Origin: a virus | Taxonomy: Duplodnaviria; Caudoviricetes | Direction: 5' to 3' (one strand) | Virus record (IMG/VR): IMGVR_UViG_3300021371_000016 | Location: 1-57,337 of that record | DNA: 57,337 bases | Part shown: positions 31,346 through 36,694 of the stretch, piece by piece | Position numbering within the stretch: position 1 is the stretch's first letter | Layout of the letters: every line of letters begins with the position of its first letter | The notes under the pieces: model-generated | What the model was told of the DNA's origin: nothing | The model's database searches: none | What the model saw: the letters and a program-made list of their open reading frames with translations, nothing else | Made by a program: the position numbers and the translations under genes

Positions 31346-31534
31346 CTAATACCCATTTCTTTGTTTTTTATTTTCTTGATGTAATATTATACCCATTGAT
31401 ACACAAGCAATAACAAACATTGCTTGATATGTGGCTAATACACCAAATACGTTAATACTTAATTCATATAATCCTGCTCCGGCTACTGATATAACTATAA
31501 GCATTAGCCAGAAATTTTTCATACTTCTTTTCAT
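31346..31534 (-). CDS. Small 2-TM membrane protein
   Basis: Two hydrophobic helices. Confidence 0.6.
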   Translation of the reverse strand: MKRSMKNFWLMLIVISVAGAGLYELSINVFGVLATYQAMFVIACVSMGIILHQENKKQRNGY

Positions 31535-31776
31535 TTTTTACTTTTTACTTTAACTTCTTCAAATTGTATTCTATCAGTATACTTATGCATAACCATACAT
31601 GTTAATGCTATAAATCCACAACCAATAAATGGCCATGGCATTGTGTTGATGAGTTCTGGTCCTCCAAATATTTGAATGTAAAATGGACTTACAAATGCAC
31701 ATGTAAATAATAGCGCTCCATATAATAAAACTCTTGAAGCATCAAAGCTTTTTAAATAATTAGTTCTCTTTTTCAT
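31531..31776 (-). CDS. Small 2-TM membrane protein
   Basis: Two hydrophobic helices; ATGA overlap. Confidence 0.6.
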   Translation of the reverse strand: MKKRTNYLKSFDASRVLLYGALLFTCAFVSPFYIQIFGGPELINTMPWPFIGCGFIALTCMVMHKYTDRIQFEEVKVKSKK

Positions 31777-32022
31777 TTTTGTGTTTTTTTTTACGATAAT
31801 ACTTCTTTTTATTCCTATAGACTTGTTTTTTACAAGCCTCTTGAATTTCCTGCTGTGTTACTACAATTTTTTTCATAATTAAAGGTTCTATTTGTATAGA
31901 AATTAAAATGGTGATATCAATGGATTCCTTTTGATACCATTATCCATCCCAGTTCATGTTGTGTGATTGCCCCTATACGAGCTTCGAATTTACCATGTTT
32001 TCTAAGTTTTAATTAAATTTAA

Positions 32023-32154
32023 TTAGTGGTTAATAAAATAAATTATGTTCTTTATGCATATCACAATACATGCTATAAAATATGAACCCAATACTACTTT
32101 ATGTATTAATTTAAGTTCCAATTCTTCAATTAGTTCTTTTATAATTTTTAGCAT
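32023..32154 (-). CDS. 43-aa single-TM peptide (MLKIIKELIEELELKLIHKVVLGSYFIACIVICIKNIIYFINH)
   Basis: Read manually; same AAAACCACAAAATCATG leader as the 32378 ORF. Confidence 0.5.
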   Translation of the reverse strand: MLKIIKELIEELELKLIHKVVLGSYFIACIVICIKNIIYFINH

Positions 32155-32177
32155 GATTTTGTGGTTTTGATTTATAA

Positions 32178-32378
32178 TTAATTTAATGTGGTTATTCTAT
32201 GATGTACGATATATATATCATTACCATATTTATCTTTAGCTTCTTTAAGACATTCTTCTTTAATATCTTTAGCATTATCAAAATAAGAACAGTTTCCTTT
32301 AAGATGTACTCCATTACTAAATTCAAAGTAATAAGATCCATTAGGAACATCAAATATTAAGTCATTAGGATTTGGCAT
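32178..32378 (-). CDS. Hypothetical protein
   Basis: 66 aa with AAAACCACAAAATCATG leader. Confidence 0.6.
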   Translation of the reverse strand: MPNPNDLIFDVPNGSYYFEFSNGVHLKGNCSYFDNAKDIKEECLKEAKDKYGNDIYIVHHRITTLN

Positions 32379-32403
32379 GATTTTGTGGTTTTAGTTTATA
32401 AAT

Positions 32404-32431
32404 AAAATGGAGTGCCAATAGCTGACACTCC
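32404..32431 (-). terminator. Hairpin / terminator
   Basis: Minus strand GGAGTGTCA-GCTAT-TGGCACTCC followed by ATTTTATTT. Confidence 0.55.
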
Positions 32432-32453
32432 TGTGTACATTTTTGTCAAAGTA

Positions 32454-32783
32454 TTATACTGATTTGACAGTCAGTTCTTGATTGTATACTATGTCTATGT
32501 AATTCTTTGGATTTTCATTAAACCACTTTAGAGTTTCAAAGAAATAATTGCTATCCATATGGTTACCACTCATTTCATCTCTCTCTAATAAGTCTCCATC
32601 TTTAATGATATACGTCAACAATCTAATTCCACAAGGATGCTTTATAAAAAGCTCATCATACGGATATTCTAATGTTGGTAAAACATGTAACTCATAGCTT
32701 GGATCAGCTATACTCTTAAAAATAGTTGGTTGATCTAATTTCATATCAAACAAATACATTGCATCTTCAAATAAATTTCTCAT
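32454..32783 (-). CDS. Hypothetical protein
   Basis: Start refined to MRNLFEDAMY after an AAAACCAAAC leader; the upstream extension overlaps the tRNA-like element. Confidence 0.65.
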   Translation of the reverse strand: MRNLFEDAMYLFDMKLDQPTIFKSIADPSYELHVLPTLEYPYDELFIKHPCGIRLLTYIIKDGDLLERDEMSGNHMDSNYFFETLKWFNENPKNYIDIVYNQELTVKSV

Positions 32784-32806
32784 GATGTTTGGTTTTGGAG
32801 TGAATA

Positions 32807-32881
32807 TGGTGGCAGTAATAGGATTCGAACCTATACATTCCAGGGCCATCATAAGAGCTATCATTCCTATGTGGTACTGCC
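32807..32881 (-). tRNA. 75-nt tRNA-like element with degenerate D and anticodon arms
   Basis: Perfect 7-bp acceptor GGCAGTA/TACTGCC, T-arm ATAGG-TTCGAAT-CCTAT, 3' ACCA; no canonical U8, D-arm or anticodon stem. Confidence 0.7.
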
Positions 32882-32884
32882 ATA

Positions 32885-33825
32885 TAAATTAAAAGGCTGA
32901 GTGATTGACCTTTTATATGCAGATTGATAAGTGTTTCCACTATTATCACACACAACTATTTCTAATTGTACTACACATGTTCACGGTTTGATATGTCCGC
33001 GCATAACTACTGTTGTGGATATAAATTCACGTTCATACCAACTTCCCTGCGACAGGATTAACAGGCTGCGACCTGCTAGTTAGATATTAATAGCTTCATT
33101 CACGATCTAGCTTGCGGCTATCACATGTCCCCATATTACAGAGGAATAAGAACATTGTTATACCAATGGGATCGTTAGGTCACCCACCAATAATACACAA
33201 CAGTCTCCAAACTAATTTTGCTTATAAATCTTTCTTGTTTAAGTTATATATAGCACAGGTAATAACGGAAGACGCTCGGAGTTATCATAACCATGGTTCC
33301 TTTTGAGAACTTTAGATTACAACTCCCGTCTGCTTTTGCTTGTCAAGGCTACTCGCTAACATCATACTTACACACAGGATTTCTCCTAGCACATAGTGTA
33401 TTCAGTCTAATAACAGCTTCAAGTGCGACAACACTATACTACCATTATCCAATACAATTCTTATTGACTTTTCAGTCTCAAGAGCAATGCCTGTCATGCT
33501 CTCTGTATTACTCACAAACCCGTGGGATTTATTGCTGCCGTAATACAGATATTATATTGCCATTCTATAAAATGCATAGCGAACTATACATCACAGGAAG
33601 GTTAACTACAAGCCCTTCCCATTTTATCCCATTACTGGTTTATCTTAACGTCATGATGGCTGACGAACATTTCTTTAGACACTAATGCTACCTCAAGGAT
33701 AGACATAAGTCACGGTAATGTTAAACGTTCCAAGGATTCTCACCTTAGTTCTAGTATGCTTTTCAGGTCTCACTTAACTAGAATAAAGACACGGGAAGGC
33801 AGTTAGCCTTCTTCTGTTTTGCTAC
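32885..33825 (-). ncRNA. Large structured ncRNA, GOLLD-like candidate (boundaries approximate)
   Basis: No credible ORF, GC visibly above the flanks, many stems (e.g. 33502-33511/33540-33549, 33749-33755/33777-33783); motifs recalled from GOLLD-like RNAs (GTTGTA...CTCAAAAGG, TAGCCGCAAG, GGTCGCA, terminal CTCAGCC hairpin); flanked by tRNA-like elements. Confidence 0.55.
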
Positions 33826-33828
33826 GTA

Positions 33829-33964
33829 TGTAGTGTGGTGGGTCACGATCCCACAAAAAGTTTGGTTTTCATATACTGCATGTTAAAATATCTAACTTAC
33901 TATTAAGGTTTATATTTTCTATAGGTAAGCAGTTGCCCCATTAATTATAATTCATCCAGACTAC
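33829..33964 (-). ncRNA. Second tRNA-like element (acceptor plus T-arm mimic with ~100-nt insert)
   Basis: GTAGTCTG/CACACTAC acceptor-like stem (one mismatch) stacked on GTGGG-ATCGTGA-CCCAC; no encoded CCA. Confidence 0.35.
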
Positions 33965-33969
33965 ACTCC

Positions 33970-34318
33970 TACCCCCATAAATGAGACAACCTCCTATTTC
34001 TAGTGATTGCTTGTAGTTCGAACGTGTTTTTGGCCTGTCCAGATATACGTTGATGGGTTTACCATTCCCTTTCCTTCATCCTCATTGCAGGACTAGCCTT
34101 GGCAAGGCACTTCGTTGTTAATTAATAACAATTGCATTAAGACACGAATGTCAACGATGCTACCTGGCAGTCATTTGATAAATCAAATAGTTGTACCTGC
34201 GTTACAGAGAGGCGTTTTAAAGCAGATTTTCCAGTCATGCTGGCTCCTCGTTGCAATTGTTAATTGGATAAGCACAGAAGGGATGAGGTGATCAAATCTC
34301 AAGGCTTCTGCGCCCGTT
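33970..34318 (-). ncRNA. Structured RNA candidate (~350 nt)
   Basis: 11-bp stem 34126-34136/34252-34262, GCGCAGAAG/CTTCTGTGC (G-U on minus), GACA-TTCG-TGTC hairpin. Confidence 0.5.
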
Positions 34319-34324
34319 CTTTTG

Positions 34325-34579
34325 TTAATCATATGGATGCATATCACTGTCATCAAACATATCATTAATCATATCTTCTTGGAAGTTATTTCCAATGTCA
34401 TATTTAACTAACTCAGGTTTAAATTCTGAGTTGTTAGGAGCATAAAATTTCTGTGACCATATTCTAAATTCCAATTTGATATCAGGGAAAGGATAGTTAT
34501 GGTTAGACTCTTCTATACACCGAGTTCTGATATGATCAGCAAATGCTAACATATCTTTTAACGAATATTCTTTATTCAT
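34325..34579 (-). CDS. Hypothetical protein
   Basis: Start refined to MNKEYSLKDMLAFA. Confidence 0.55.
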   Translation of the reverse strand: MNKEYSLKDMLAFADHIRTRCIEESNHNYPFPDIKLEFRIWSQKFYAPNNSEFKPELVKYDIGNNFQEDMINDMFDDSDMHPYD

Positions 34580-34698
34580 AAGCGTTAGTTTAGTGTGGTT
34601 AAAAAAGTGAGCATCCATCTCTGAGGAAGCTTGTGCTAATTGGCACTTGCTTCCCCATTACGGTCAACTCACTCATTGGAATATGGTTATTCCCTTGG

Positions 34699-35043
34699 TT
34701 AGATACAATCATGCCAAGGGCTGTGGTGCGTTATCTGCCCTGTACCAGGACGATGTCTTTCAATAGAACAATCACTATTGAAATTGTAAGTGTTCAGGTT
34801 GAACCTTTTGTGAAGAAAGTTAGAAACCTTACGAGAAGGGTAGAACATATCTTTTAATGCAGAGTAACCTCTACGGTGCAACTGAATTCTCAAAAACAAC
34901 TTACAGAAAGCTTTTTGAGTAGTAATCCACTCATGTGAATTATAAGTAGAGACAATATAACTTCTCTTGAATCTTCTAAGAAGATCTTTCTTTGGCTTTA
35001 GGTCTCCTCCAAAGAGAGCTTTTATTTCATCATAATCTTCCAT
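34699..35043 (-). CDS. Hypothetical protein
   Basis: 114 aa with TAAACCACTTACTATG leader. Confidence 0.5.
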   Translation of the reverse strand: MEDYDEIKALFGGDLKPKKDLLRRFKRSYIVSTYNSHEWITTQKAFCKLFLRIQLHRRGYSALKDMFYPSRKVSNFLHKRFNLNTYNFNSDCSIERHRPGTGQITHHSPWHDCI

Positions 35044-35196
35044 AGTAAGTGGTTTAAGGTTAATTAATGGTGTCCAAGAGTCAGTTTAGCTAGATTCTCC
35101 CAGCATAGGACTGTCCCCTAACTCTTGGCAATTTTGTCTTTAGATTTTTTCTATTCCCAGGTACTAAGACATTTAACCTATAGGTAAGTACTCTTC

Positions 35197-35289
35197 TTAG
35201 ATAGATAATACTACATGTAAGCCATAAGCAAACATAGTAGAGACTCCCATCATAAGAATTGCAATTGATAAGTGTGCAATGTTCTTCAT
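35197..35289 (-). CDS. 30-aa hydrophobic peptide (MKNIAHLSIAILMMGVSTMFAYGLHVVLSI)
   Basis: Read manually; TAATACCACAAC leader. Confidence 0.45.
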   Translation of the reverse strand: MKNIAHLSIAILMMGVSTMFAYGLHVVLSI

Positions 35290-35299
35290 TGTTGTGGTA

Positions 35300-35895
35300 T
35301 TAGAGTGGATTGTAGCCATATATATAATTAGACAGCAACAATTGATTATGATTCATACTACCCATGAATCTAGGGTTTATTTGGGTCACCCATAAAACAA
35401 TAAACGCACGTACAAATAGTTAGTAGCGGTCTAGTATTTTAAAAGTTTAAGGGCTTAAGTGCTAAAGTAAGCACCAATATGGGTATTTATCCGCTCTTAT
35501 GAACGGATAACCCAATAGTTGAGAACTTTAGGCGTTCTCATTGCGAACCCATTCCAATGGAGTTACACAGCCGTTAGATCCTATATACATAGTTCTTGTG
35601 GTATTAAGTTAGAAACTATAATCCGTACTGCAACGTATAAGCGCTATCACCTGCTTATAGGTTGCAATGAGTGGATTTAATGATTAGCATGTGTTGACGG
35701 TATCTTTCTCTACCAGATGTTTAACGTCACTCTCTGAACCCTGTCAATATAGTTTACAACTACATGCTATTAGTCAGTAATGTGGTGCACTACACCGCTA
35801 TTTTACGTGGGCTCCTCGTCCCCGTAACTATAGTCAGTGTAGTGTAGCAAAGTCCAATACTTCCGCCTACTTCCTTCAGCGCAGTATTGGTTGGC
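35300..35895 (-). ncRNA. Structured RNA candidate / long structured intercistronic leader
   Basis: Series of long stems: 35854-35861/35883-35890, 35685-35692/35762-35769, TTATCCG/CGGATAA, GAGAAC/GTTCTC, TGCAAC/GTTGCA. Confidence 0.5.
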
Positions 35896-35907
35896 CTCTA
35901 AGCCTGA

Positions 35908-36180
35908 TTACAACACTAGCTCACCGAGCACGTTGTTATCAGATGGCTTAGAAACAAGTAAAAACGTTTCACCGTTTTCGCTTGTGACCTCTGAGACTGT
36001 AAGCTCCAGAGATAAGGCCTCAACCTTATCACTGATAGCGCCAGTCACGGACGTGCCTGGGACAGCAAAGAAGCGTTTACCGGTCTTTGGGGAACGGATG
36101 ATTTGCATCTTTGATGCGCCCTGATCACGTAAGAAGTCGGCAATTGGCATTGTGGTTCCCCACGTCAATTTCCTTTCCAT
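35908..36180 (-). CDS. First gene of the leftward unit, hypothetical (SPKTGKRFF motif)
   Basis: 90 aa, visibly higher GC than the other CDSs; xPKTGKxF pattern recalled from crAss-like early genes. Confidence 0.65.
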   Translation of the reverse strand: MERKLTWGTTMPIADFLRDQGASKMQIIRSPKTGKRFFAVPGTSVTGAISDKVEALSLELTVSEVTSENGETFLLVSKPSDNNVLGELVL

Positions 36181-36376
36181 ATGAGTCTTGCGAATTAGTT
36201 ATTGAGTTATTTAACGGGGATCCCCCCAACTCAAAAATTAGGCGGGGAGCAGAATGCTAGGACCCTATGCACATGCAACACACACATTTTTTAAATTAGG
36301 GAGGGGGTATATTTTTGAAAGGAAACGTTGGGGGGCTGGACAGAAATACGTATATTACTATATAAAGAAGATACTC
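36181..36376. other. Divergent transcription switch region with hairpin and G-runs
   Basis: TTGAGTT...GGGG-AT-CCCC...AACTCAA (36202-36234) and four G4-G7 runs in an AT-rich genome. Confidence 0.55.
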
Positions 36377-36694
36377 ATGGAAGAAAGAGAAGAACCAGAA
36401 GATTACATTGAAGGTCTATCTGATGCGGAGAGAATGGCTTTAGAACGTAGACTGCTTAAGACTGCATATGATAATTCATTTGAGGTTTTGATGAAGAACA
36501 TAACATTTGAGGAACTATTGGAAGATGGGGGTGGTTCTGCATTTAGTACTCTACTTGCATATGACCCGCAAAGAGGAATTAGGAAAGATGAATTAAAATC
36601 AATTATTGATTATTACGTGAGCCTGGATGAGTCTGAGTATTATCTAAGGTGTGCAAGATTACAAAAGTTAATGGAAGAAAAATATCCAGAATAA
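36377..36694 (+). CDS. Hypothetical protein with C-terminal UVR-like motif
   Basis: Start refined to MEEREE; EYYLRCARLQKL. Confidence 0.65.
   Translation: MEEREEPEDYIEGLSDAERMALERRLLKTAYDNSFEVLMKNITFEELLEDGGGSAFSTLLAYDPQRGIRKDELKSIIDYYVSLDESEYYLRCARLQKLMEEKYPE

What the first reader, a model, noticed from the sequence alone, without database searches (positions are those of the whole stretch)
32807..33964. Giant structured RNA (GOLLD-like) bracketed by two anticodon-less tRNA mimics: candidate tRNA-punctuated ncRNA cassette
Seen: ~940 nt (32885-33825) with no credible ORF in an otherwise wall-to-wall coding genome, packed with stems (10-bp 33502-33511/33540-33549; GGAAGG/CCTTCC; CGTCA/TGACG; TTCTAGT/ACTAGAA; GAAGGC/GCCTTC; terminal AAAAGG/CCTTTT). 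On the minus strand a tRNA-shaped element (32807-32881) follows it within a few nt, and another acceptor/T-arm mimic (33829-33964) precedes it. Established: GOLLD RNAs are ~800-nt phage-associated ncRNAs often adjacent to tRNAs, and RNase P recognises mainly the acceptor stem and T-arm. From memory only: GTTGTA...CTCAAAAGG, TAGCCGCAAG, GGTCGCA and terminal CTCAGCC resemble GOLLD. Inference: the tRNA mimics kept only the processing determinants and act as cut marks that release the large RNA with defined ends.
Basis: partly seen in the sequence, partly recalled or inferred. Interest (0 to 1): 0.9.

Follow-up and report, generated by a model that had tools for sequence, protein, structure and literature searches.

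The report
Divergent GOLLD RNA in marine phage
The ORF-free stretch is a real, about 860-base structured RNA gene of a marine crAss-like phage, a distant relative of the known GOLLD giant RNAs, followed by one degenerate tRNA-like element rather than bracketed by two.

Summary
Window 32,887-33,750 (minus strand) encodes a conserved, about 864-nt structured non-coding RNA. Homologs lie in 17 further viral and marine metagenome loci, in three clades 68-76% identical to each other. RNAalifold predicts 185 pairs in 32 helices. 98.6% of cells pair, against 34-47% when partners are slid. 71 pairs show compensatory double changes, against 5-10 in the slid controls.

Its 3' half (32,894-33,327) aligns end to end with Rfam's GOLLD model at 45.7 bits (E about 1e-10). 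That is far below the 150-bit gathering score. Relatives score 66, 71 and 103 bits and bridge the gap. The GOLLD motifs and its long-range pseudoknot are present. So "GOLLD-like" is right: it is a divergent GOLLD member that the default Rfam scans missed.

The 75-nt element at 32,807-32,881 is a degenerate tRNA-like RNA with a good acceptor stem, T-arm and encoded CCA, but no proper D or anticodon arm. It follows the RNA in only 5 of 17 loci, and a 94%-identical relative lacks it. The second "mimic" (33,829-33,964) is not supported.

Contigs from four marine RNA libraries cover only the RNA, a weak hint of a discrete transcript. The tRNA-punctuation idea is at best optional and applies only to the 3' side.

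The parts
32887..33750 (-). Conserved large structured ncRNA (about 864 nt), a divergent GOLLD-class RNA
   Evidence: nhmmer profile hit over HMM positions 3-857. Conservation starts and stops sharply in alignments A2 and A3. 185 pairs in 32 helices, 71 with compensatory changes.
32894..33327 (-). 3' domain matching the Rfam GOLLD model (RF02032) over model positions 1-416
   Evidence: 45.7 bits, E 1.7e-12 and E 1.2e-10 with alignment. This is below the 150-bit gathering score.
33328..33750 (-). 5' domain. It is conserved among the three clades and includes the GAUAA-hairpin(GUAA loop)-GAUAAA motif, which the distant homologs L033 and L022 share.
   Evidence: Alignment A3 and helices 2-16. The motif was found in all three lineages.
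33196..33204 (-). 5' strand of the long-range (pseudoknot) helix, ACUGUUGUG
   Evidence: Fully complementary to 33,009-33,017. L033 and L022 carry different but complementary strands at the same relative places. Infernal puts the L033 strands in the GOLLD pseudoknot columns.
33009..33017 (-). 3' strand of the long-range (pseudoknot) helix, CACAACAGU
32891..32914 (-). Terminal hairpin (AAAAGG, a 12-nt loop holding CUCAG, CCUUUU) followed by a U/A-rich tail. It corresponds to the last hairpin of the GOLLD model.
   Evidence: Helix 32 has 2 pairs with double changes. Aligned to GOLLD positions 400-416 at high posterior probability.
32807..32881 (-). Degenerate tRNA-like element: 7-bp acceptor stem, T-arm with GGUUCGAAUCC, discriminator A and encoded CCA. 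One long hairpin replaces the D and anticodon arms.
   Evidence: ARAGORN 'tRNA-His (atg)'. Rfam tRNA 23.1 bits, below 29. Fold. 100% identical over 79 nt in G001. 80% identical in L011, where it scores 30.4 bits.
33764..33866 (-). It is not part of the conserved RNA.
   Evidence: BLAST finds no counterpart of it in L036: the matches stop at 33,763 and resume at 33,867. L030 shares this flank, and the other clades have unrelated flanks. No tRNA-model match. z = +0.18.

Best explanation
Window 32,887-33,750 (minus strand) is the gene of an about 864-nt structured non-coding RNA of an uncultivated marine crAss-like phage. It is a divergent member of the GOLLD class: a lineage-specific 5' domain, an A/U-rich linker, and a 3' domain homologous to the conserved GOLLD 3' domain, including its long-range pseudoknot and terminal hairpin.

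Shown here: conservation, covariation, homology to the GOLLD model, and presence in marine RNA libraries.

Inferred from homology with GOLLD, which forms a 14-mer RNA-only cage in cryo-EM (Kretsch et al.): the transcript folds without protein and probably self-assembles into a multimer that acts during infection. The role of GOLLD itself is unknown.

Inferred from anatomy: the RNA is made as a discrete molecule. Its 3' end is set by the terminal hairpin and U-rich tail. In the phages that carry the adjacent tRNA-like element (window, L023), any read-through could additionally be trimmed by RNase P cutting at the 5' side of that element.

The tRNA-like element is an optional neighbour, most likely descended from a phage tRNA gene. 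It is not a defining part of the RNA.
For: Homologs:
- 17 further loci hold full-length or nearly full-length homologs, and two more (L024, L040) hold only the 3' two-thirds. Three clades are 68-76% identical to each other.
- Conservation begins and ends sharply, with unrelated flanks.

Structure:
- 185 pairs; 98.6% of cells paired against 34-47% when partners are slid.
- 71 pairs with double changes against 5-10 in slid controls.
- Covariation score 0.373 against about 0.05; 0 of 500 shuffles reach it.

Homology to GOLLD:
- Full-length GOLLD model alignment at 45.7 bits, E about 1e-10 to 1e-12.
- Relatives score 66.4 and 71 bits and 103.4 bits.
- Helices that RNAalifold predicted de novo coincide with GOLLD model helices: the hairpin with the CGCAA loop, the GAAA-loop hairpin inside a long-range helix, and the terminal hairpin.
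- The pseudoknot strands are complementary in three lineages with different sequences.

Strand and coding:
- Minus-strand fold z = -3.0 against plus-strand -0.2.
- No coding signal.

Expression:
- In 4 of 4 marine RNA-library runs from 4 studies, contigs lie only within 32,902-33,735, plus one short piece at 33,983-34,098.
- None lies on 31,500-32,786 or 34,100-35,000.

Context:
- The distant homolog L033 sits inside a tRNA array, with a tRNA starting 7 nt after its end.
- This matches the published GOLLD context of phages and tRNA islands (passages read in 10.1101/2024.12.08.627333, and PMC6582537).
Against: - All scores are below Rfam's curated GOLLD cut-off of 150 bits. The window's alignment has a mean posterior of only 0.60 and several non-canonical pairs in the first helix and the pseudoknot columns.
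- The default Rfam scans of the whole window and of a 2.7-kb stretch returned nothing.
- The RNA-library evidence rests on assembled contigs. These cannot show strand, ends or level and may hold DNA, and the runs were chosen because they hold this stretch. No DNA run was laid as a control.
- Multimer formation and any function are inferred, not tested.
- No promoter was recognised upstream, and the flanks differ between clades.
- The covariation rests on three main clades, so many counted cells are inherited rather than independent events.
Confidence: 0.85

Rival explanations
1. One reading: the large RNA is a cassette bracketed by two anticodon-less tRNA mimics. Both act as RNase P/Z cut marks that release it with defined ends.
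For: The 3' element is real and starts 5 nt after the conserved RNA end. The same arrangement, with an 8-nt gap, occurs in L023, which belongs to another clade. L033 has genuine tRNAs about 80 nt upstream and 7 nt downstream. The RNA-library contigs do not extend into the tRNA-like element.
Against: The 5' 'mimic' has no tRNA-model match, no fold signal and no conservation. The 3' element is found in only 5 of 17 loci. In G001, L031 and L035 an intervening small ORF separates it from the RNA. It is absent from L036 and L030, whose RNAs are 94-96% identical to the window's.
Confidence: 0.05
2. The tRNA-like element is a decaying phage tRNA gene, or a shuffled remnant of one. It plays no part in making the large RNA, and the adjacency only reflects the usual GOLLD neighbourhood of tRNA genes.
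For: The D and anticodon arms are degenerate, and the Rfam score of 23.1 is below the cut-off. The L011 copy is more tRNA-like (30.4 bits) and sits without any GOLLD match in its record. Presence and absence vary among close relatives. The window's 32,178-32,881 is an indel bounded by a repeated gene-start motif. A pseudo-tRNA inside a GOLLD gene with no detectable expression was reported in Mycobacterium (PMC6582537, passages).
Against: The element is 100% identical over 79 nt between the window and G001, although their large RNAs are only 68-69% identical. That points to selection or recent transfer. The acceptor stem, T-arm and CCA are intact. Against L011, the T-stem and the long hairpin keep pairing through changes on both sides; this is my own reading of two sequences.
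Confidence: 0.45
3. The RNA is an independent family that only resembles GOLLD by convergence or by a chance sub-threshold match.
For: 45.7 bits is less than a third of the curated cut-off. Parts of the alignment have low posterior probability. The 5' domain has no Rfam counterpart.
Against: The match spans the whole model in four separate sequences, with scores rising to 103 bits. E-values run from 1e-10 to 6e-28. Motif order, helices and the pseudoknot coincide. Size, phage origin and tRNA context also agree.
Confidence: 0.05
4. The stretch is protein-coding under an unusual code, a decayed gene, or a self-splicing intron.
For: A 130-aa ORF exists on the plus strand. Some crAss-like phages recode stop codons (recalled, not from a call here).
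Against: No long ORF under TAG=Q or TGA=W. No codon-position bias. Indels between clades are hairpin-sized, not codon-sized. No group I or II intron or ribozyme family matched. The flanks are unrelated between homologs, so there are no conserved exons.
Confidence: 0.02

Closest known systems
[quoted passage not shown]
   Same: Over 800 nt and phage-encoded, with a variable 5' part and a conserved 3' domain. Full-length alignment to the 416-position model. Shared elements are the UCAAAAG-loop hairpin, the AAGCAAAA motif, the CGCAA-loop hairpin, the long-range pseudoknot, the GAAA-loop hairpin inside a closing helix, and the terminal hairpin with CUCAGCC. tRNA genes or tRNA-like elements lie next to it. 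Marine GOLLD examples next to a tRNA are in print.
   Different: Scores of 45.7-103 bits are below the 150-bit gathering score, so standard annotation misses it. The host is a marine crAss-like phage lineage. No paper in the searched library holds both 'GOLLD RNA' and 'crAss'. The neighbour is a degenerate tRNA-like element rather than a normal tRNA. Multimer formation is untested.
ROOL RNA (RF03087)
   Same: A large ornate phage RNA near tRNA islands that forms RNA-only cages.
   Different: No match at E <= 10 (the control genomes gave no signal either, so that test is weak). The full-library Rfam scans also gave no ROOL match.
Pseudo-tRNA associated with GOLLD in Mycobacterium tRNA clusters (PMC6582537)
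   Same: A degenerate tRNA-like gene physically associated with a GOLLD gene inside horizontally moved, phage-derived DNA (passages).
   Different: There it lies inside the GOLLD gene. Here it lies 5 nt after the 3' end and keeps a perfect acceptor stem, T-arm and CCA.
MALAT1-mascRNA type 3'-end formation (recalled from the literature, not read here)
   Same: A tRNA-like structure directly 3' of a long ncRNA would let RNase P define the long RNA's 3' end.
   Different: That system is eukaryotic. Here it is untested, and the element is absent from most relatives.

Membership tests
GOLLD (RF02032) | Score at or above Rfam's gathering threshold (150 bits) | tested here: not met
   Window 45.7 bits. 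L019 66.4 and L020 71 bits. L033 103.4 bits. None of 12 homolog loci reached the threshold.
GOLLD (RF02032) | Statistically significant alignment over the whole conserved 3'-domain model | tested here: met
   Model positions 1-416 matched in the window, L019, L020 and L033, with E from 1.2e-10 to 6.2e-28.
GOLLD (RF02032) | Consensus helices and loop motifs of the 3' domain | tested here: met
   The Infernal alignments show the UCAAAAG, CGCAA and GAAA loops and the terminal CUCAGCC hairpin. RNAalifold predicted the same hairpins independently, and they covary (helices 23-25 and 29-32). The first helix and some inner helices align poorly in the window.
GOLLD (RF02032) | Long-range pseudoknot between the strand after the AAGCAAAAG motif and a strand about 150-190 nt downstream | tested here: met
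   9-10 bp of perfect or G-U pairing at equivalent places in the window, L033 and L022, with different sequences. The L033 strands fall in the model's pseudoknot columns. Within the 14 close sequences both strands are invariant apart from one A-to-G change in L041 and L032 (alignment A3), so they carry no information on this helix.
GOLLD (RF02032) | Over 800 nt with a less conserved 5' region, phage-borne, often near tRNAs (as described in 10.1101/2024.12.08.627333) | tested here: met
   864 nt. The phage record carries terminase, portal and DNA polymerase genes. A tRNA-like element starts 5 nt downstream. L033 lies in a tRNA array.
GOLLD (RF02032) | Protein-free homo-oligomeric cage (14-mer) | not testable with these tools
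   Needs in vitro transcription with SEC, DLS or cryo-EM.
tRNA (RF00005) | Score at or above the gathering threshold (29 bits) | tested here: not met
   23.1 bits at 32,810-32,881(-). The L011 homolog scores 30.4 bits.
tRNA (RF00005) | 7-bp acceptor stem, T-arm with a GGUUCGAAUCC-type loop, discriminator base and CCA | tested here: met
   Infernal alignment and fold. The sequence ends in ...UACUGCC-A-CCA.
tRNA (RF00005) | D-arm, and an anticodon arm with a 7-nt loop holding a usable anticodon | tested here: not met
   The Infernal alignment leaves these arms unaligned or non-canonical. The minimum-energy fold is one 10-bp hairpin instead. ARAGORN's 'His (atg)' call puts the anticodon at an irregular position 30.
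ROOL (RF03087) | Match to the family model | tested here: not met
   No match at E <= 10 (its control gave no signal anywhere). No match in the full-library scans.
Group II intron | Match to the domain models; conserved exon flanks | tested here: not met
   RF01998 (group-II-D1D4-1) gave no match. No intron family appeared in the Rfam scans. Flanks are unrelated between homologs.

The most novel reading that the evidence does not exclude
The 75-nt element, made of acceptor stem, T-arm and CCA, is not a dead tRNA. It is a selected, mobile 'minihelix' module made on the same transcript as the GOLLD-class RNA. It would serve as an RNase P handle. After release it would act as a tRNA-shaped decoy or cargo linked to the presumed RNA cage, for example against host tRNA-targeting defences. 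That would tie the unknown function of GOLLD to tRNA biology.

Two observations leave this open. The element is 100% identical between phages whose large RNAs differ by about 31%. It also recurs directly after the RNA in two clades.
Probability: 0.12. Interest if true: 0.75.

Novelty: new member of a known kind. Interest (0 to 1): 0.42.

Why it matters
GOLLD is one of the largest bacterial and phage non-coding RNAs. It has a solved cage-like structure but no known function.

This finding adds a divergent clade that curated Rfam thresholds and the default speed filters miss. It places GOLLD-class RNAs in marine crAss-like phages. It supplies about 20 natural sequences in three clades, plus two distant bridging forms, which sharpen what the conserved core is. 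One example is an invariant 25-nt stretch containing CCUCUGUAAUAUGGGG; another is the covarying pseudoknot.

The presence or absence of an adjacent tRNA-like element among near-identical phages is a ready-made natural experiment. It can test whether tRNA-shaped neighbours matter for making these RNAs.

The RNA turns up in seawater RNA libraries from several studies, which suggests it is made in nature.

Tried and rejected
- Rfam at gathering thresholds on the whole window and a permissive scan of 2.7 kb gave no GOLLD hit. The hit appeared only in a direct family search and a 0.9-kb scan, so the earlier blanks were filter losses. For the same reason the blanks for other stretches are weak.
- I first recalled the wrong accession for GOLLD. 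RF01998 turned out to be group-II-D1D4-1 (no match).
- blastn of 32,800-36,300 against GenBank phages: no match.
- Loci fetched through the flanking 301-aa protein hold no RNA homolog (L001-L009 were in the profile search and gave no hit); by blastn only L001 shares the upstream DNA, and L003/L004 carry long ORFs upstream instead.
- An 18-mer scan of 185,579 prokaryote genomes gave 28 hits. None showed RNA homology beyond the seeded motif in a profile search. About half share one conserved flank that I read as an aminoacyl-tRNA synthetase motif from my own translation, and L042 looked coding by eye. So no prokaryote or prophage copy was found by this motif.
- The extra 16-mer viral hits L070-L072 gave only the seed match in the profile search. 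L070 and L072 look like a terminator hairpin.
- Alternative genetic codes and Hatchet in the window: nothing.
- A hairpin motif seen upstream of the RNA in clade C is absent from the window.
- MAFFT alignment of the distant 3' domains (A4) misplaced the pseudoknot strands, so I checked them directly instead.
- No promoter was recognised by eye upstream of 33,750. I did not run the promoter scanner.
- The first sliding-fold script timed out; I repeated it smaller.
- Supplementary tables of PMC10690425 (over 10,000 candidate viral RNAs from IMG/VR) could not be seen. Parts of this RNA may already be listed there.
- RNA-library parts without cover (31,500-32,786; 34,100-35,000) come from contigs only and prove nothing on their own.
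Full report
WHAT THE WINDOW IS. The window is a 57,337-nt viral record, estimated about 50% complete. Genes left of about 32.8 kb run on the minus strand, including a DNA polymerase and a helicase. Genes right of about 36.25 kb run on the plus strand, including an endolysin-like protein, large terminase and portal. The portal is 22-32% identical to portals of crAss-like phages, Cellulophaga phages and a Leptolyngbya phage. I therefore call it a marine crAss-like phage. Relatives come from seawater and marine data.

Between the two gene blocks lies an ORF-poor stretch with raised G+C: 0.37-0.40 per kb, up to 0.49 locally, against 0.26-0.31 in the flanks. The finding covers its left end.

THE OBSERVATION. 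No credible ORF exists in 32,882-33,830 under table 11, TAG=Q or table 4. The 130-aa plus-strand ORF at 33,293-33,685 shows substitutions of 6/3/6 by codon position against L036. Real genes nearby show a third-position excess, for example 12/6/37 for 36,254-36,694 and 5/3/13 for 34,699-35,043. The minus strand of 32,882-33,828 folds to -250.9 kcal/mol (z = -3.0), and the plus strand to -197.1 (z = -0.2). ARAGORN finds one tRNA-like gene, at 32,807-32,881 on the minus strand.

HOMOLOGS. A record reached through the tRNA-like motif (G001) carries a 69%-identical copy of 32,884-33,747. I then scanned with an invariant motif of that alignment.
- The scan found 3 more viral loci and 20 metagenome loci.
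- Of the 20 metagenome loci, 14 hold the profile over more than two-thirds of its length (12 of them nearly or wholly full length, 2 with only the 3' two-thirds), 2 (L033, L037) match it only over the core, and 4 gave no hit at E <= 1e-3.
- One of those four, L022, proved to be a distant homolog at relaxed settings.

The full-length copies form three clades, 84-100% identical within a clade and 68-76% between clades. Conservation starts abruptly at CUAAGGUGAG (33,750) and stops just after CUCAGCC-UUUU (32,887). The flanks are unrelated between clades.

The same motif scanned over 185,579 prokaryote genomes gave 28 hits. None showed RNA homology beyond the seeded motif in a profile search. About half share one conserved flank that I read as a tRNA-synthetase motif from my own translation. 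No GenBank phage matched by blastn.

STRUCTURE. On 14 sequences (A3) RNAalifold predicts 185 pairs in 32 helices, 71 of them with compensatory double changes. Counting with controls gives:
- 98.6% of cells paired, against 34-47% when partners are slid by 1-3 columns.
- 71 pairs with double changes, against 5-10 in slid controls.
- Covariation score 0.373 against about 0.05; 0 of 500 shuffles reach the observed values.

Long-range helices covary too (columns 286-293/541-549, 586-593/685-692 and 742-747/919-924). Differences between clades are hairpin-sized insertions and stem replacements, often capped by UUCG or GNRA loops. This is a genuine large structured RNA. One caveat: the diversity is essentially three clades, so many counted cells are inherited.

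IDENTITY. Rfam at gathering thresholds, and a permissive 2.7-kb scan, showed nothing but the weak tRNA match. A direct search with the GOLLD model (RF02032, 416 positions, cut-off 150 bits) found 32,894-33,327(-) at 45.7 bits, E 1.7e-12, over model positions 1-416. A 0.9-kb scan then reproduced it at E 1.2e-10 with the alignment, so the earlier blanks were filter losses.

Clade C members score 66.4 and 71 bits. The distant homolog L033 scores 103.4 bits, E 6e-28. L033 lies in a tRNA array beside a phage tmRNA.

The alignments share these elements:
- the hairpin with a UCAAAAG loop;
- the AAGCAAAA motif;
- the hairpin with a CGCAA loop;
- a GAAA-loop hairpin within a closing helix;
- the terminal hairpin with CUCAGCC.

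The GOLLD pseudoknot is matched by ACUGUUGUG (33,196-33,204) pairing with CACAACAGU (33,009-33,017). L033 and L022 carry different but fully complementary strands at the same relative positions.

Published descriptions fit (passages read): more than 800 nt, a conserved 3' region with a less conserved 5' region, phage or prophage origin, tRNA islands, and a marine example downstream of a tRNA. I therefore file it as a divergent GOLLD-class RNA that fails Rfam's curated score. ROOL and a group II intron domain gave no match.

THE tRNA-LIKE ELEMENTS. The element at 32,807-32,881(-) has a 7-bp acceptor stem, a perfect T-arm, discriminator A and an encoded CCA. Its middle folds as one long hairpin instead of D and anticodon arms. 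It scores 23.1 bits, below the cut-off of 29.

It is 100% identical over 79 nt in G001, although the large RNAs there are only 68-69% identical. An 80%-identical copy in L011 scores 30.4 bits and has no GOLLD match in its record.

By an exact 22-nt pattern it follows the RNA in 5 of 17 loci that hold the RNA's 3' end and 100 nt or more of downstream flank:
- at 5-8 nt in the window and L023;
- at about 250-290 nt, beyond a small ORF, in G001, L031 and L035.

Divergent copies could escape this pattern. L036 and L030, whose RNAs are 94-96% identical to the window's, have a protein gene there instead. Against L036 the window's 32,178-32,881 is an indel bounded by a repeated gene-start motif. True tRNAs lie 0.7-0.9 kb downstream in L019 and L034, and directly on both sides in L033.

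The claimed second mimic (33,829-33,964) has no tRNA-model match, z = +0.18 and no conservation. BLAST finds no counterpart of part of it (33,764-33,866) in L036.

EXPRESSION. 24 runs hold 20-31% of the sampled words of 32,700-33,950, 18 of them on record as RNA. I laid four RNA runs from four studies on 31,500-35,000. Their contigs lie only within 32,902-33,735. Among them are an 803-nt contig that maps entirely to 32,902-33,705 and a 657-nt contig that maps to 33,075-33,731. One further short piece maps to 33,983-34,098. Nothing lies on the flanking genes or on the tRNA-like element.

Contigs cannot show strand, ends or level. The runs were picked for holding this stretch, and no DNA control was laid. 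This is therefore a weak hint of a discrete RNA of about the predicted extent, not proof.

HOW IT LIKELY WORKS. Shown: it is a conserved, covarying, GOLLD-homologous RNA gene on the minus strand that is present in marine RNA libraries. Inferred: like GOLLD, it folds without protein and probably assembles into a multimer during infection (about 0.6 given the homology). Its 3' end is set by the terminal hairpin and U-rich tail. Where the tRNA-like element follows directly, RNase P may trim read-through transcripts (about 0.35). Equally likely (about 0.45), the element is a decaying, shuffled tRNA gene with no role. The two-sided 'punctuation' model is unlikely (about 0.05).

NOVELTY. This is a new, divergent member of a known kind. 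No paper in the searched library holds both 'GOLLD RNA' and 'crAss'. The supplementary lists of candidate viral RNAs in PMC10690425 could not be checked.

Noticed in passing
window 33,751-36,250: The ORF-poor, G+C-rich stretch continues 2.5 kb beyond the RNA, at the divergent strand switch and the minimum of cumulative GC skew. ORF 34,699-35,043(-) looks coding (substitutions 5/3/13 and 2/2/6 by codon position). ORF 34,325-34,618(-) is frameshifted in both close relatives. 35,300-36,100 reaches 0.45-0.49 G+C with strong local folds (z from -3 to -6) and no Rfam match. It could hold the origin, promoters or a further RNA.
   Followed up: partly
window 34,590-34,675 (-): A very long hairpin followed by UUUUUU, just after the stop of ORF 34,699-35,043 (z = -6.3). 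It is probably that gene's intrinsic terminator, and it explains the strongest fold signal in the region.
   Followed up: partly
window 32,178-32,881 against L036:1,531: Two small genes plus the tRNA-like element form a 700-nt indel relative to a phage that is 87-94% identical. The indel is bounded by a repeated gene-start motif (...AAAACCACAAAATCATG) at about 32,150-32,177 and 32,371-32,402. Recombination between such repeats may shuffle modules.
   Followed up: partly
L020:12,676-12,809 (+): A Hatchet self-cleaving ribozyme (82.1 bits, above the cut-off of 51) lies about 670 nt upstream of the GOLLD-like RNA, on the same strand, in a clade C phage. The window has none.
   Followed up: partly
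L033:90-4,498: The distant homolog sits in a tRNA array of 7 Rfam tRNA matches, together with a tmRNA gene (98.7 bits).
   Followed up: no
L011:1-1,140: Another stretch free of ORFs of 55 aa or more, with raised G+C (0.34-0.41 against 0.29-0.30), lies directly upstream of an 80%-identical tRNA-like element. Its record has no GOLLD match, and it shares only short motifs with the other loci. It may be a different large RNA in the same genomic position.
   Followed up: partly
window 31,760-31,876 (-): A small Lys-rich 38-aa ORF. Its DNA is 69-79% conserved near the GOLLD-like RNA in G001, L019 and L034.
   Followed up: no
L021:1,025-1,042, L041:889-906, L011:1,425-1,442: A conserved hairpin motif (AAGGAnnGCnACCTTGTG) lies about 10-20 nt upstream of the RNA in L021 and L041 (clade C; similar variants by eye in L032 and L027), and upstream of a protein gene in L011. 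It is absent from the window. It may be a phage promoter or regulatory site.
   Followed up: partly
L018:4,986-5,230 (G001): A 62-aa ORF ending in a Cys/His-rich tail is inserted between the RNA and the tRNA-like element in G001. L035 also has an ORF there, with a different start.
   Followed up: no
method note, window 32,894-33,327: The GOLLD match (45.7 bits) was invisible in the Rfam scans of 57 kb and 2.7 kb and appeared only when 0.9 kb was scanned or the family was searched directly. Blanks from larger scans of other windows may hide similar divergent members.
   Followed up: yes
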